Virus record (IMG/VR): IMGVR_UViG_2778261543_000003
Coordinates: 1 to 15,756 of that record
Direction: 5' to 3' (one strand)
DNA from: a virus
Taxonomy: Duplodnaviria; Heunggongvirae; Uroviricota; Caudoviricetes
Length of the DNA: 15,756 nucleotides
The position numbers were made by a program, and so were the translations under genes. Below are positions 982 to 15,330 of this stretch, piece after piece. Within the stretch, counting starts at the first letter, position 1; each line of letters opens with the position of its first letter. The notes beneath the pieces are model-generated. The model did no database searches and was not told the origin of the DNA. It saw nothing but the letters and a program-made list of their open reading frames with translations.

Positions 982-1530
982 TTATTTAGCTAACTTTTTC
1001 CAGATCGCTGAAACGTATTTGGCTTGGTGGATGGCATCATCAAGCGCGTTGTGGCGAGTTCCTTTGAATGGCATATCTCGCTTAGGGTTGAATCCTATTA
1101 CCTTTCCAAGCTCGACGATTGTTCTTACGTCGCGGTCATTCCACCACTGCCATGGAACTGGCTGCCCTGTCAGCGAATAACTGTTTCGGAGAATAACGCA
1201 GTCAAATGATGCTCCATTCCCCCAAACCTGAACGAATTTGTGGTTAGCGTTCTTTATGATGAATTCAGATAACCATGAAAGAGCCGTTGAAAGCTCCTGA
1301 GTGTTGCTGGTTAGCGATTTTCTGGCTTCTTCACTCTGTTCCAGCCACCATAAAATCGTTGAAGCGTCAGGACGCGCTCGATATCGCATTGATGATTCAA
1401 GCGAGATATTTACCGAGAACTCTTCTCCTGTTTCTCCGGTATTCGGGTCAAAGAATACCGCCCCAATAGAAATAACTGGCGCGTATGGCCCGTTGCCCAT
1501 TGTTTCAAGGTCAACCATCAAGTGATTCAT
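982..1530 (-). CDS. DEDDh-type 3'-5' exonuclease (DnaQ-like fold)
   Basis: N-terminal MVDLETMG (Exo I D-x-E motif) and C-terminal HNALDDA (Exo III H-x4-D motif); sits directly downstream of SSB. Confidence 0.8.
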   Translation of the reverse strand: MNHLMVDLETMGNGPYAPVISIGAVFFDPNTGETGEEFSVNISLESSMRYRARPDASTILWWLEQSEEARKSLTSNTQELSTALSWLSEFIIKNANHKFVQVWGNGASFDCVILRNSYSLTGQPVPWQWWNDRDVRTIVELGKVIGFNPKRDMPFKGTRHNALDDAIHQAKYVSAIWKKLAK

Positions 1531-1538
1531 GTAAGTCC

Positions 1539-2054
1539 TTAAATTGCGTGAATAGCGTGACGAGGGAAGGGGAGAGTTACTGGTGCAAAGGGGATATCGT
1601 CGTCAAAATCCATAGGTGGTTCGCTGTGATTTCCCTGCTGCTGAGGTTGCTGTCTTTGTTGCTGACCATTATTTCGCTGAGGTGAAGACTGTTCATTGCC
1701 TCCTTGCTTGCCACCAAGCATTTGCATGGTTCCACCAACGCCCACGATGACTTCGGTAGTGAACCGATCCTGTCCGCTTTGATCCTGCCATTTTCTTGTC
1801 CGCAATTTGCCTTCAAGATAAACCTCAGAGCCTTTTCGCAGATATTCGCTGGCAATTTCTGCCAGTTTCCCGCTCATTACCACGCGGTGCCACTCCGTCT
1901 GCTCCTTTTGCTCTCCAGTTTTCTTATCACGCCATTGTTCTGACGTAGCAACGGTAAGGTTTGCAAATGCCGTTCCTGATGGTGAATATCTGATTTCTGG
2001 ATCATGCCCAAGGCGACCAATAATGATCACCTTATTTACGCCTCTGCTTGCCAT
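1539..2054 (-). CDS. ssb: Single-stranded DNA-binding protein with extended C-terminus
   Basis: OB-fold N-terminus closely resembling E. coli SSB ([33 protein letters not shown]), Gly/Gln-rich linker and acidic tip [11 protein letters not shown], followed by 15 extra residues ([15 protein letters not shown]). Confidence 0.9.
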
Positions 2055-2762
2055 TTATGCCGCCTGTTTTAGTTCGTTAACTCTGATGTTCATTACCTGA
2101 ACGCATTTAGCCTGCGCCTCCTCGTTGCCAGCCATTAATTGCCAGTCACGCTGATAACGCTCGATGAGTTTTTTCTTGTCAGTTTCTGTTGACGCATAAT
2201 CGCTGAAGTCTTTCAGGATTTGTTCGCAGTCAACCGATGGAGATTTCTGGTTGGTATTTTCTGGTGATGGTTTGTTATCTGATGCTGGGATTGCCCATCC
2301 CGGCAGCGATGGAGGGAGCCAGTAAAATCCTGTTCCATCCTTGAGTTTTGCCCTGTGCCATCCCTGCTTTTTATCGAGAGATGTTTGTGCGAAACCTTCC
2401 TCAAGGTTATACAGATACCGACCGATTCCCCATTGAACGGCAGCACGCTTCATTGCACCGGAACGACCACCTTTGACGGCTTCTACCTGCGTGTTTTCAG
2501 CAGCATCCCATTTGGTTACCCATTCGGAATCAATCTTGATTGATATGCCGCATTCAACTCCGCCGTTGTTGGGAATATCGCGGTATTCATTGCGCCATCC
2601 TGCTTTGCCGCAAACATCGTCCAGGCGTTTCATGATTGCCCGGTTCGTGGCATAAGCCAGCACCATAGCCCACACTTTGCCATCGCGTGTTTTACCGCTT
2701 TGCTGTATTCGCCATTCGATATCTTCAGGGCTGAATGGCTCATCGAATTTATTCAAATCCAT
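2055..2762 (-). CDS. Rad52-family single-strand annealing protein (Sak-like recombinase)
   Basis: Motif GGRSGAMKRAAVQWGIGRYLYNL resembles the conserved Rad52/Sak hairpin region; gene is adjacent to SSB and an exonuclease; stop TAA abuts the ssb ATG. Confidence 0.65.
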   Translation of the reverse strand: MDLNKFDEPFSPEDIEWRIQQSGKTRDGKVWAMVLAYATNRAIMKRLDDVCGKAGWRNEYRDIPNNGGVECGISIKIDSEWVTKWDAAENTQVEAVKGGRSGAMKRAAVQWGIGRYLYNLEEGFAQTSLDKKQGWHRAKLKDGTGFYWLPPSLPGWAIPASDNKPSPENTNQKSPSVDCEQILKDFSDYASTETDKKKLIERYQRDWQLMAGNEEAQAKCVQVMNIRVNELKQAA

Positions 2763-8466: not shown

Positions 8467-9839
8467 GACAGGATATCGAAGCGAGCGTTATCGGTGGCCT
8501 GCTGATTGGTGGATTAACACCAACCGCCAGCGACGTTCTGGCAACGCTGGAGCCGGAAGCGTTTTCAATTCCGCTCTACCGGAAAGCCTTCGAGGTTATC
8601 CGCAAGCAGGCGAGAAACAGAAACCTAATCGACGCGCTGATGGTTGCAGAGGCGTGCGGAGAGGAGCATTTCACGTCAATCCTGATGACCAGCAAGAACT
8701 GCCCGAGTGCCGCAAACCTGAAGGGATATGCTGGAATGGTCGCGGATAACTATCACCGCCGTCTGGTGCTGGAAATCATGGACGAAATGCGTGAACCAAT
8801 TCAGAGCGGAACCATCGACGCATCGAGTCAGGCGATGGACGAGCTGGTAAAGCGTCTTTCAGCCATCAGAAAGCCACGTGACGAGGTAAAACCTGTACGG
8901 TTAGGGGAAATCATCACCGACTACACTGACACGCTTGACAGGCGTCTGAGGAACGGAGAAGAGTCAGATACCCTGAAGACCGGAATCGAAGAACTTGACG
9001 CTATCACCGGAGGGATGAACGCTGAAGACCTGGTGATTATCGCCGCTCGTCCTGGTATGGGGAAAACCGAACTGGCGCTAAAGATTGCCGAAGGTGTTGC
9101 AAGCCGCGTTATTCCTGGTTCTGACGTCCGGCGCGGAGTATTGATTTTCTCGATGGAAATGAGCGCATTGCAGATTGCAGAGCGAAGCATTGCCAACGCC
9201 GGGAGGATGTCGGTTAGCGTACTGCGAAATCCTGCATCGATGGATGACGAGGGCTGGGCACGTGTTGCTAACGGCATGAGTCAGCTTGCAGATTTGGATG
9301 TATGGGTAGTCGATGCCTCGCGGTTATCGGTCGAAGAAATACGCTCAATCGCAGAACGGCACAAACAGGAAAATCCAAACCTGTCACTCATCATGGCGGA
9401 TTATCTTGGCCTGATTGAGAAGCCGAAAGCAGATCGCAACGACCTTGCAATTGCTCACATCTCCGGAAGCCTGAAGGCGATGGCGAAAGACCTGAAAACG
9501 CCTGTTATCTCCCTGAGTCAGCTTTCGCGCGATGTTGAGAAGCGACCAAACAAACGCCCGACAAACGCAGATTTGCGTGATTCAGGAAGCATTGAGCAGG
9601 ACGCAGACTCAATCATCATGCTCTATCGGGAAGCGGTATATGACGAGAACAGTAGCGCCGCGCCATTTGCTGAAATCATTGTGACAAAAAACCGTTTTGG
9701 CTCACTTGGTACGGTTTACCAGCGGTTCTGCAACGGACACTTTGTTGCATGTGACCAGGATGAAGCCAGACAGATTTGCACAGCATCAAATGCACCTGCT
9801 GCGCGTGGCAGACGATATGCACAAGGGGCTGACGTATGA
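8463..9839 (+). CDS. DnaB-family replicative DNA helicase
   Basis: DnaB-like N-terminal domain followed by a RecA-type ATPase core with Walker [10 protein letters not shown]; sits directly after O. Confidence 0.9.
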
Positions 9840-9916
9840 CCATCTACATCACTGAGCTGATAGCAGGCCTGCTGGTAATCGCAGGCCTTTTTATTTGGGG
9901 GAGAGGGAAGTCATGA
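9836..9916 (+). CDS. Micro-ORF for a 26-aa hydrophobic peptide ([26 protein letters not shown])
   Basis: ATGA overlaps at both ends (with the helicase stop and the next gene start); could equally be chance. Confidence 0.25.
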
Positions 9917-10095
9917 ATCTGGACGAGCAAGATGCACAAACTATTAGCTCATACATAAGGGCATCAAGACCAGATTACAAAGGTCCGGTATTCGTAGATT
10001 TATCTCGCCTTGAGGAGATTTACATGTGGGAAGCAAAGCTACGTACGCATCTTTTTATTCGTAAGATGACTAGCAACATTACAAAACCAATGTAA
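9913..10095 (+). CDS. Hypothetical protein (60 aa, start MNLDEQ)
   Basis: GGGGGAGAGGGAAG upstream of the internal ATG at 9913; nin-region position. Confidence 0.5.
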   Translation: MNLDEQDAQTISSYIRASRPDYKGPVFVDLSRLEEIYMWEAKLRTHLFIRKMTSNITKPM

Positions 10096-10109
10096 CTGGA
10101 GAGGTGAAT

Positions 10110-10325
10110 ATGAGCACACTCGCAGACCTTATTCATGCCGATATGGCGGAAGATGGAGCAAGGCGTAATAGGTACTGGAAATCATCAAGCCTTCCAGTTT
10201 GTGAAAGATTCAACCACAGGCCAAAACCAAAACGTAGCCGACGAGACAAAGTGTTGAAAAAACTCATGCAAATTAACATGGCTGGTTTTGTCAGATTCGT
10301 GAGTGAAACGACTAACGGGGATTGA
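10110..10325 (+). CDS. Hypothetical basic protein (71 aa)
   Basis: GGAGAGG RBS upstream; same-strand tight packing. Confidence 0.5.
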   Translation: MSTLADLIHADMAEDGARRNRYWKSSSLPVCERFNHRPKPKRSRRDKVLKKLMQINMAGFVRFVSETTNGD

Positions 10326-10326
10326 T

Positions 10327-10593
10327 ATGGACGAATCAAGAAAGCAGTTTGAAGAATGGTTTGAAAATTACACCGGATGTGATCCTAAAAATAAAATATA
10401 CGCCAATATGGTTGAGATGTATTGGCAAGCGTGGCAGGCATCGCGAGCAGCTATCGAGATTGAGTGTCCTGGAAAAAGAGAGCGTGAGGCATTTTCTACC
10501 GATTTCGAGGATGGGGTCACATTTGGTTATAACGACGCAATTAGTGAATGCGAAGGACGGATTCGCGCTGCTGGAGTCAAAGTGAAGGAGTGA
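10327..10593 (+). CDS. Hypothetical protein (88 aa, start MDESRKQFEEW)
   Basis: Start 1 nt after the previous stop; the alternative frame 10322-10585 looks less protein-like. Confidence 0.5.
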   Translation: MDESRKQFEEWFENYTGCDPKNKIYANMVEMYWQAWQASRAAIEIECPGKREREAFSTDFEDGVTFGYNDAISECEGRIRAAGVKVKE

Positions 10594-12575: not shown

Positions 12576-12650
12576 GGGTCAGTCGTATAAAGGTCATTAC
12601 GGAAGGCTGTTAACCTTCTTATCGTGGTTCGAGTCAACGCTGTCCCGCCA
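12576..12650 (+). tRNA. tRNA-Asn-like (anticodon GUU), possibly degenerate
   Basis: Cloverleaf foldable by hand: anticodon arm GAAGG-CTGTTAA-CCTTC, T-loop TTCGAGT, 3' CCA; but one acceptor mismatch, one T-stem mismatch and an odd D-arm. Confidence 0.4.
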
Positions 12651-12655
12651 AATAT

Positions 12656-12731
12656 GCTGGTTTAGCTCCAATGGTAGAGCAGTCGCCTTGTAAGCGAATG
12701 GGTAGCGGTTCAAGTCCGTTAACCAGCACCA
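12656..12731 (+). tRNA. tRNA-Thr (anticodon UGU)
   Basis: 76 nt; perfect 7-bp acceptor stem GCTGGTT/AACCAGC, D-stem GCTC/GAGC with GG in loop, anticodon loop CTTGTAA, T-loop TTCAAGT, 3' ACCA. Confidence 0.75.
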
Positions 12732-15111: not shown

Positions 15112-15330
15112 CGGCAGTACCGCGAAACAACCCAAGCCAGTAAGTGGGGAAATAACACTGGCAGCCACTGAAAGATGAACCTCCAGCCTTATGGCAAAAA
15201 AGATTCTTTGTGGTGGCGGACTGATGGAAAGACATCGGATAGAATAAAACAGTGGCTAGGGTAGCTCCCGAAAAGCGGAATCGTCACCGCCAGCCACTGA
15301 ATCTATGACGAACAACTAGACGAGGTTGAT

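What the first reader, a model, noticed from the sequence alone, without database searches (positions are those of the whole stretch)
1539..1604. SSB whose canonical C-terminal tip DDDIPF is internal, followed by a 15-residue extension
The ORF reads ...[26 protein letters not shown]-stop. In E. coli-type SSBs the protein ends exactly at ...DDDIPF, and the free C-terminal Phe is essential for docking partner proteins. Here the codon after Phe is GCA, not a stop, so the interaction tip is buried unless processed. This could retarget the SSB, prevent it titrating host partners, or be a recent stop-codon loss.
Basis: partly seen in the sequence, partly recalled or inferred. Interest (0 to 1): 0.55.

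Follow-up and report, generated by a model that had tools for sequence, protein, structure and literature searches.

The report
Capped SSB tail on mobile elements
This prophage's single-stranded-DNA-binding protein carries a conserved 15-residue cap after the normally terminal partner-docking motif; the cap is shared by many phage and plasmid SSBs, seems undescribed, and is added, removed or moved by homing endonuclease genes.

Summary
On the minus strand (1539..2054) a 171-aa SSB reads ...[26 protein letters not shown]-stop.

It is not a sequencing error or a recent stop-codon loss. The same uninterrupted junction is in 317 of 5426 complete E. coli genomes. 116 of the 120 closest protein clusters carry the extension.

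The extension is as conserved as the DNA-binding OB domain and far more than the linker. Its pN/pS is about 0.2.

Related tails (DDIPF-AP[IV][GT]L[PQM][YF]...) sit on unrelated SSB bodies in lambdoid, T1-like, rV5-like, phapecoctavirus-like and Vibrio phages, and on IncN conjugative plasmids. Pseudomonas elements use a different tail class.

Three families of free-standing endonuclease genes insert at the Phe codon. In Sf6 the insertion frees the tip and puts the tail on the nuclease. In rV5-like phages the tail arrives together with the nuclease.

Most likely the tail is a disordered cap plus second docking peptide. It removes the free Phe carboxylate that host partners need and so changes which partners bind. 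That mechanism is inferred, not shown.

I found no description of it in the searchable literature.

The parts
1539..2054 (-). ssb ORF, 171 aa including the extension; stop codon TAA at 1539-1541
   Evidence: Pfam PF00436 E=3.7e-38; RefSeq annotates the identical ORF as ssb WP_000168258.1
1740..2039 (-). OB-fold DNA-binding/tetramerisation domain (residues 6-105)
   Evidence: Pfam SSB match to residues 6-105; mean pairwise identity 0.87 over residues 1-112 among 115 relatives
1620..1718 (-). Gln/Gly/Pro-rich disordered linker (residues 113-145)
   Evidence: sequence; least conserved region, pairwise identity 0.53; pLDDT below 50
1587..1619 (-). canonical SSB-Ct tip [11 protein letters not shown] (residues 146-156), here internal
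   Evidence: identical to the E. coli SSB tip found in PDB chains; pairwise identity 0.95; pN/pS 0.07
1542..1586 (-). 15-residue cap [15 protein letters not shown] (residues 157-171), a class-1 mobile-element SSB tail
   Evidence: pairwise identity 0.85; pN/pS 0.23; 7 synonymous and 0 non-synonymous differences in L104
1585..1599 (-). empty homing-endonuclease insertion site: the segment replaced by a 462-nt cassette (recoded tip end, stop codon and Sf6-type endonuclease gene) in Bas106 and Sf6-like phages
2055..2762 (-). upstream Rad52/Rad22-family single-strand annealing protein, contiguous and in frame with ssb
982..1530 (-). downstream 3'-5' exonuclease (Rv2179c-like); its ATG lies 8 nt after the ssb stop codon

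Best explanation
Shown: the 15 residues after DDDIPF are a translated, selected, portable C-terminal module. It is one member of a family of capped SSB tails, DDIPF-AP[IV][GT]L[PQM][YF][PG][RK]...hydrophobic end. The family is carried by SSBs of mobile elements: lambdoid and P22-like prophages, T1-like phages, rV5-like and phapecoctavirus-like virulent phages, Vibrio phages and IncN conjugative plasmids.

Weakly supported: the whole tail is disordered, so it would act as a short linear motif. This rests on one low-confidence monomer model.

Inferred mechanism: the tip Phe is no longer terminal, so it lacks the free alpha-carboxylate that host SSB partners clamp with a basic residue. The element's SSB can then coat its own ssDNA without serving as the normal landing pad for host enzymes such as ExoI and RecO. 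The cap, possibly together with the still-conserved tip, would offer a second interface specific to the host taxon.

Shown separately: the tip-coding DNA is a homing and recombination hot spot. Free-standing endonuclease genes of three families insert exactly at the Phe codon. This un-caps the SSB in Sf6 and ES18. It caps the SSB in rV5-like DrSchubert as compared with RudolfGeigy. The same events would explain how the tail moves between unrelated SSB bodies.

My confidence by step:
- conserved functional peptide: about 0.9
- homing hot spot: about 0.8
- blocks canonical docking: about 0.55
- provides a new specific partner interface: about 0.35

The overall figure of 0.5 is for the whole statement, mechanism included.
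For: Conservation:
- 116 of the 120 closest 90%-identity clusters carry [AS]P[VIL][TS]LPFPRH[ATV][IVM][HY][AV][ILV].
- The extension is as conserved as the OB fold (0.85 against 0.87) and far more than the linker (0.53).
- pN/pS is 0.23. Against the window there are 76 synonymous and 40 non-synonymous differences over 12 synonymous and 33 non-synonymous sites.
- The identical peptide is encoded by 7 DNA variants.

Portability:
- SSB bodies 26-28% identical to the window's, or not homologous at all, carry tails 47-93% identical.
- Examples: Mt1B1_P17, ACG-M12, DrSchubert, PVP-SE1, JohannJBalmer, V039C and the IncN plasmid pTR4.

Breadth:
- At least 201 phage records and 102 plasmid records, 68 of them conjugative.
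- 78 of 120 matches in an unbiased viral scan continue with AP after FDDDIPF.

Host tracking:
- The named-species genome hits with AP[LM]H.L.G[AV]-type tails are all Pseudomonas. Those with class-1 tails are nearly all Enterobacterales or close gammaproteobacterial relatives.
- No single neighbouring gene family accompanies the tail.
- Class-1 tails occur next to three unrelated annealing-protein families.

Need for a free terminus.

Disorder: pLDDT of about 30 across linker, tip and extension.

Homing endonucleases.
Against: - No experiment shows that a short cap blocks partner binding. The published test used a whole GFP.
- The tip stays strongly conserved although capped (pN/pS 0.07). That is unexpected if it were permanently disabled, and it fits processing or a bipartite motif equally well.
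- Near-isogenic phages exist with and without the cap (Sf6 and ES18 against the window). The cap is therefore dispensable for viability.
- No partner was identified.
- The AlphaFold model was poor overall (mean pLDDT 51) and monomer-only, so 'disordered' is only weakly supported.
- The host-taxon correlation could simply reflect shared ancestry of elements confined to one host group.
Confidence: 0.5

Rival explanations
1. Degron or pro-peptide. The hydrophobic-ended tail is recognised by a host protease. Either the cap is removed to expose a working tip at the right time, or the element's SSB is kept short-lived.
For: The tip remains as conserved as in free-tip SSBs, which is expected if it becomes terminal after processing. 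Tails of all classes end in hydrophobic residues, and [AS]-P directly after Phe is the dominant continuation. The ending ...RHAIHAI loosely resembles the MuA-type ClpX C-terminal signal ...RRKKAI; this comparison is from memory and was not tested. Proteases are encoded nearby in two elements: an SprT-like metalloprotease next to pTR4 ssb and a Clp-fold serine protease in an identical prophage.
Against: The best-conserved positions are the first ten residues, P158, L161, F163, R165 and H166, and not the last three, which vary most. A C-terminal degron would normally be most constrained at its end. No protease co-occurs consistently. No cleavage site is known for F|AP.
Confidence: 0.2
2. Selfish by-product. 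The extension is read-through into, or a remnant of, a homing-endonuclease cassette. It hitch-hikes by co-conversion, is tolerated, and has no function for the SSB.
For: In rV5-like phages the extension arrives with the nuclease gene, inserted right after the Phe codon of a canonical-tip gene. The PHROG profile for that SSB family ends at the tip Phe. In Sf6 the tail's 14 residues end the nuclease ORF. phiKp_30 shows a decaying nuclease at the site. The 45-nt tail is 100% identical among several E. coli and Salmonella phages whose flanks differ.
Against: Most class-1 loci have no nuclease nearby. The tail shows long-term purifying selection in the SSB reading frame with near-saturated synonymous change. 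It is as conserved as the OB fold. The nuclease families lack the tail: homologs align only to about residues 134-143. A neutral scar would accumulate stop codons and frameshifts.
Confidence: 0.1
3. The constraint acts on DNA or RNA and not on the peptide. Candidates are a nuclease recognition site, a recombination 'boundary sequence', a translational-coupling spacer for the downstream gene, or an RNA element.
For: There is a sharp mosaic boundary at the Phe codon. The ssb stop codon lies 8-13 nt before the next gene's ATG in many loci. The Sf6 record annotates 'boundary sequences' elsewhere in that genome.
Against: Third-codon positions vary freely while the amino acids are kept. There is no Rfam hit and no unusual RNA stability, with z = 0.31. 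The downstream genes differ: exonuclease, abc2, Dam methylase, a terminator, or a convergent protease gene.
Confidence: 0.04
4. A recent loss of the stop codon, or a sequencing or assembly error, in this one genome.
For: None beyond the fact that 15 open codons are not unlikely by chance.
Against: Identical sequence in many independent complete genomes and phage isolates, and all the conservation data.
Confidence: 0.01

Closest known systems
E. coli SSB C-terminal tip (SSB-Ct, ...[15 protein letters not shown]), the hub for ExoI, RecO, RecQ, PriA, chi, DnaG and others
   Same: The 11-residue tip is identical. The architecture is the same: OB domain, disordered linker, acidic-hydrophobic tip.
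   Different: Here the tip is internal and followed by a conserved 15-residue cap. Partners studied so far anchor the terminal carboxylate, and a C-terminal GFP fusion abolishes ExoI binding.
Phage HK620 SSB with Sak4 (PMC5928155)
   Same: A lambdoid-phage SSB in a recombination module whose C-terminal residues mediate functional coupling to the annealing protein.
   Different: HK620 SSB ends in a free tip-like NDYPPF with no cap. The class-1 cap occurs next to Rad52-like, Erf-like and Sak4-like annealases alike.
Bas52_0087, the SSB-like trigger of the DRT10 defence system (bioRxiv 10.64898/2026.04.29.721553)
   Same: A phage SSB-like protein whose FDDDIPF motif is proposed to interface with host ExoI/SbcB. 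It is an ortholog of the rV5-type proteins studied here.
   Different: Bas52_0087 ends at ...FDDDIPF-stop. Its near-isogenic relative DrSchubert bas50_0088 ends at ...[21 protein letters not shown]. Its relative PVP-SE1 gp39 is capped too. The preprint passages I read do not discuss capped variants.
Free-standing homing endonuclease genes of phages, such as T4 mobE and the seg genes, and nuclease genes at boundaries of genetic exchange (PMC2790892, PMC10448857)
   Same: There is a presence/absence polymorphism at one precise site between near-identical genomes. The target is recoded next to the insert and the flanks are co-converted.
   Different: The insertion sits at the last sense codon of ssb and changes the protein's C-terminus. 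The nuclease ORF borrows the displaced SSB codons as its own C-terminus in Sf6. It starts inside the cap codons in DrSchubert.
Conjugative-plasmid leading-region SSBs, for example F-plasmid SSB
   Same: An SSB encoded by a mobile element and expressed on entry. The IncN plasmid pTR4 SSB lies beside antirestriction genes.
   Different: From memory, F-type SSB ends in a free ...DDIPF. The IncN SSB is capped...[21 protein letters not shown].

Membership tests
Bacterial-type homotetrameric SSB (PF00436 with an SSB-Ct tail) | N-terminal OB-fold SSB domain | tested here: met
   Pfam PF00436 E=3.7e-38, residues 6-105; phrog_44 E=3e-69
Bacterial-type homotetrameric SSB (PF00436 with an SSB-Ct tail) | Low-complexity disordered linker between the OB domain and the tip | tested here: met
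   Gln/Gly/Pro-rich residues 113-145; low conservation; pLDDT below 50
Bacterial-type homotetrameric SSB (PF00436 with an SSB-Ct tail) | Acidic-hydrophobic tip motif D-D-D-I-P-F | tested here: met
   [11 protein letters not shown] at residues 146-156; matches E. coli SSB chains
Bacterial-type homotetrameric SSB (PF00436 with an SSB-Ct tail) | The tip Phe is the last residue, with a free alpha-carboxylate for partner docking | tested here: not met
   15 sense codons follow the Phe codon; the same holds in 116 of the 120 closest clusters
Class-1 capped SSB tail of mobile elements (defined in this work) | DDIPF followed by [AS]P-hydrophobic-[GT]-L-x-[YF]-[PG]-basic, 14-16 residues in all, with a hydrophobic last residue | tested here: met
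   [15 protein letters not shown] fits; relatives listed
Class-1 capped SSB tail of mobile elements (defined in this work) | Purifying selection on the peptide, independent of the SSB body type | tested here: met
   pN/pS 0.23; tails 87-93% identical on bodies 26-28% identical
Homing-endonuclease target site (nuclease-free allele) | Nuclease gene present or absent at one precise position between otherwise near-identical genomes | tested here: met
   Window against Bas106 and Sf6; DrSchubert against RudolfGeigy; ES18 and sal5 homology ends at the last base of the Phe codon
Homing-endonuclease target site (nuclease-free allele) | Sequence changes or a co-conversion tract next to the insert in the nuclease-containing allele | tested here: met
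   5 mismatches in the last ~33 nt upstream plus 15 replaced bases, against 0 in 188 nt downstream
Homing-endonuclease target site (nuclease-free allele) | The nuclease cleaves the empty site and mobilises its gene into it | not testable with these tools
   Needs in vitro cleavage or a co-infection cross
Beta-clamp-binding motif (QL[SD]LF / QLxLxL) | Conserved Gln at position 1 followed by the hydrophobic pattern | tested here: not met
   By inspection: P-V-T-L-P-F and P-I-G-L-Q-Y have no Gln at position 1, and Pseudomonas class-2 tails (APLHHLAGA) do not fit at all. The consensus is from memory.
ClpX C-terminal recognition signal, MuA type (...RRKKAI) | Basic residues followed by a small-hydrophobic C-terminal dipeptide, and ClpXP-dependent turnover | tested here: inconclusive
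   ...RHAIHAI resembles it loosely, but the last five positions are the most variable in the family. Turnover cannot be tested here.

The most novel reading that the evidence does not exclude
Mobile genetic elements of Enterobacterales, Vibrio and Pseudomonas carry a previously unrecognised, host-taxon-specific cap on the universal SSB-Ct hub motif. The cap turns the element's SSB into a stealth or hijacking SSB. It coats incoming or recombining ssDNA, denies host nucleases, RecFOR loading and guard-type defence sensors their landing pad, and recruits one particular host factor instead. Homing endonucleases at the Phe codon act as natural switches that cap, un-cap and spread the module.
Probability: 0.3. 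Interest if true: 0.8.

Novelty: new variant of a known kind. Interest (0 to 1): 0.66.

Why it matters
The SSB C-terminal tip is one of the best-studied protein-interaction hubs in bacteria, and the textbook rule is that it must be at the very C-terminus.

A large, conserved family of phage and plasmid SSBs breaks that rule in a stereotyped way. That implies an unstudied layer of control over who may dock on ssDNA during infection, recombination and conjugation.

It bears on several active topics:
- recombineering portability, where annealing proteins read the SSB tail
- defence systems triggered by phage SSBs or by perturbing ExoI, such as DRT10
- SOS suppression during plasmid entry

Nature also supplies ready-made isogenic pairs: DrSchubert against RudolfGeigy, and HK75 or mEp235 against Sf6 and ES18. 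These make the question directly testable.

The nuclease genes that borrow or donate SSB codons are a neat case of selfish elements rewiring a host protein's terminus.

Tried and rejected
- **AlphaFold2 of the SSB with a 20-sequence alignment.** The model was poor (mean pLDDT 51) and the tail scored about 30. There is no evidence of docking in cis, and nothing more can be said from it.
- **Clustering of neighbouring genes around 73 class-1 and 41 class-2 loci.** No family accompanies the tail universally, so no candidate element-encoded partner emerged.
- **Exhaustive representative-protein search with the last 31 residues.** It returned only 11 short fragments, which was uninformative.
- **Literature.** The string DIPFAP appears in no searchable paper, and no description of capped tips was found.
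- **Solved structures.** Only free-tip SSB chains and engineered tip fusions appear.
- **RNA explanations.** Rfam and RNA folding gave nothing at the site.
- **Programmed frameshifting at CCC TTT G.** Considered and rejected by inspection: the heptamer does not fit X XXY YYZ in the zero frame, and the alternative frames give nothing conserved.
- **Extension as out-of-frame shadow of the nuclease N-terminus, as in DrSchubert.** Rejected, because third-position variation follows the SSB frame and most loci lack a nuclease.
- **Per-phage DRT10 sensitivity of capped against uncapped BASEL phages.** Looked for in the preprint, but the data are not in the text.

Full report
**Observation**

The window's minus strand carries an ORF at 1539..2054 of 171 codons with an ATG start. 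It is an SSB: Pfam PF00436 matches residues 6-105 with E = 3.7e-38. The protein ends ...[30 protein letters not shown].

The gene lies in a lambdoid prophage early-left operon. It sits between a Rad52/Rad22-family annealing protein (2055..2762) and a 3'-5' exonuclease (982..1530). An identical prophage region in E. coli BUCT2930 is annotated by RefSeq with the full 171-aa ssb.

**Not an error or a recent accident**

- The 801-nt region is 100% identical in several complete E. coli genomes and is present in 417 of 5426.
- A 102-nt probe across the tip/extension junction is uninterrupted in 317 genomes.
- In a search of 5.8 billion proteins, 116 of the 120 closest 90%-identity clusters carry a 15-residue extension. 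These come from Escherichia, Klebsiella, Citrobacter, Salmonella and Enterobacter. Substitutions are only conservative: [AS]P[VIL][TS]LPFPRH[ATV][IVM][HY][AV][ILV].

Conservation across 115 of those representatives:

| Region | Mean pairwise identity |
|---|---|
| Tip | 0.95 |
| OB domain | 0.87 |
| Extension | 0.85 |
| Linker | 0.53 |

At the DNA level the identical peptide is encoded by seven different sequences. One of them, L104, has 7 synonymous and 0 non-synonymous differences from the window. Within the LPFPRH subfamily, pN/pS is 0.23 for the extension and 0.07 for the tip. So the constraint acts on the translated peptide. There is no Rfam family and no unusual RNA structure at the site.

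**A portable module on unrelated SSBs**

About half of the tails are class 1: AP[IV][GT]L[PQM][YF][PGK]..., 14-15 residues with a hydrophobic end. About a third are a 9-residue class 2, AP[LHM]H[HY]L[AN]G[AVGST]. The rest are shorter classes.

An unbiased scan looked for FDDDIPF followed by any codon not starting with T. AP was the continuation in 78 of 120 viral matches. It was also the continuation in most SSB-sized hits in species-representative genomes.

Class-1 tails sit on many kinds of SSB:
- E. coli-type SSBs from 26% to 99% identical to the window's
- T1-like ACG-M12 SSB
- two-OB SSB-like proteins of phapecoctaviruses, Justusliebigvirus, PVP-SE1 and rV5-like phages
- Vibrio phage SSBs
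- an SSB next to a Sak4-like ATPase

At least 201 sequenced phages carry the module. So do 102 plasmids, 68 of them predicted conjugative. One is the IncN plasmid pTR4, whose leading-region SSB ends ...[21 protein letters not shown].

Tail class tracks host taxon. Among named-species genomes, class 2 is found in Pseudomonas. Class 1 is found mostly in Enterobacterales, and also in Vibrio phages. Tail class does not track SSB body type or the neighbouring annealing-protein family, and no neighbouring gene family is universal.

**The homing-endonuclease connection**

In Sf6, IME10, Bas106 and relatives the SSB ends canonically (...NFDDSDIPF-TAG). The next gene is Sf6 gene 26, an endonuclease of phrog_2340 related to the intron-encoded I-KsaII. 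It ends ...[18 protein letters not shown]. Those 14 residues, and their 42 nt plus the stop codon, are exactly the window's extension. The Sf6 GenBank note already records the 14-residue identity to an "E. coli SSB".

Nuclease homologs elsewhere align only to about residues 134-143. The tail therefore belongs to ssb, and the nuclease gene inserted between tip and cap.

Against Bas106, the cassette of 462 nt replaces window 1585-1599. Five mismatches fall in the last ~33 nt upstream and none in the 188 nt downstream. That is the signature of a recoded target and a co-conversion tract.

Other cases at the same site:
- ES18 and 146851_sal5 have ...NFDDEIPF-stop followed by an unrelated HNH_3 nuclease. 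Their homology to the window ends at the last base of the Phe codon.
- phiKp_30 shows a decayed nuclease at the site.
- Metagenomic loci show both nuclease types directly after DDIPF-APxxx-stop.

In rV5-like phages the polarity is reversed. RudolfGeigy (Bas52) ends at ...FDDDIPF-TAA followed by a terminator. The near-isogenic DrSchubert has a cassette inserted right after the Phe codon. That cassette holds the cap codons (APVGLQYGKSRIHAL) plus an endo-VII-like nuclease whose start lies inside the cap codons. It is flanked by a CTTT microrepeat.

Capped SSBs without any nuclease nearby are nevertheless the majority: the window, HK75, mEp235, epsilon34, PVP-SE1, JohannJBalmer and pTR4.

My reading is that the highly conserved tip-coding DNA is both a nuclease target and the only stretch of homology between unrelated ssb genes. 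Homing and recombination there would cap, un-cap and shuttle the tail.

In complete E. coli genomes, 317 carry the uninterrupted capped junction and 98-99 carry the Sf6-type nuclease.

**How it most likely works**

Established knowledge: SSB partners bind the last residues of the tip and clamp the terminal carboxylate. [quoted passage not shown] SSB with GFP appended to its C-terminus fails to bind ExoI and cannot replace wild-type SSB.

Inference: a capped tip cannot dock in the canonical way. The element's SSB would then cover ssDNA without acting as the normal host hub. The conserved cap, perhaps read together with the tip, would supply a second, host-specific interface.

The tail is predicted to be disordered, from a poor model. 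That fits a short linear motif.

Two facts limit confidence. First, the tip remains under strong selection although capped, which fits a bipartite motif or proteolytic unmasking equally well. Second, capped and uncapped near-isogenic phages coexist, so the cap is not essential.

The rivals are listed with their tests: degron or pro-peptide, selfish by-product, DNA/RNA-level constraint, and error.

**Comparison with what is known, and novelty**

The protein is a bacterial-type SSB in every respect except the defining terminal position of the tip. I found no paper containing the motif and no solved structure with it.

The closest literature is work on HK620 SSB and Sak4 and the 2026 DRT10 preprint on Bas52_0087. 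The passages I read from that preprint do not mention capped orthologs.

I class this as a new variant of a known kind: real, widespread, stereotyped and apparently overlooked. Its mechanism is still to be shown.

Noticed in passing
window 12576-12650 and 12656-12731 (+): Two phage-borne tRNA genes, tRNA-Asn(GTT) and tRNA-Thr(TGT), lie in the late-regulatory region of the prophage.
   Followed up: partly
window 15249-15311 (+): Rfam match to the int-alpA sRNA family: 42 bits against a gathering score of 35.8.
   Followed up: no
E. coli genomes, hits H246-H250: The Sf6-type endonuclease gene is present in 98-99 complete E. coli genomes. It has no annotated feature under the match in the top RefSeq records, so PGAP seems to miss it.
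   Followed up: no
NZ_CP026085.1 (assembly labelled E. coli DH5alpha) and E. coli W, hits H58-H60 and H241-H244: Common laboratory strains carry a prophage ssb with this capped tail, 100% identical over the 102-nt junction probe. I did not determine which prophage it is.
   Followed up: no
L306 (IncN plasmid pTR4) 2568-3353; L305 (E. coli BUCT2930 prophage) 9545-10549: Proteases are encoded near capped ssb genes in two different elements. One is an SprT-family metalloprotease convergent with pTR4 ssb. The other is an SDH-family Clp-fold serine protease next to the prophage repressor. This may be coincidence, but it is relevant to the processing hypothesis.
   Followed up: no
L013 (Vibrio phage D460) 572-1626: The SSB ends ...PSDFDDDRS-stop, a truncated tip, and is followed by an Sf6-type endonuclease. 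This looks like a nuclease insertion that destroyed the tip.
   Followed up: no
P0122 (120 aa): A protein with a non-SSB N-terminal part is fused to ...[36 protein letters not shown]. It is probably a deletion fusion that kept the tip plus cap.
   Followed up: no
L299 (DrSchubert) 1844-2467 and L001 (Sf6) 2130-2609: The two nucleases belong to different PHROG families (phrog_1035 endo VII-like and phrog_2340). They share an N-terminal Zn-ribbon segment, which may be the module that targets the ssb 3' end.
   Followed up: partly
window 1539-2762 (-): The Rad52-like gene and ssb are exactly contiguous and in the same frame: the stop at 2055-2057 is followed directly by the ssb ATG at 2054. The ssb stop lies 8 nt before the exonuclease ATG. 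This suggests tight translational coupling along the recombination module.
   Followed up: no
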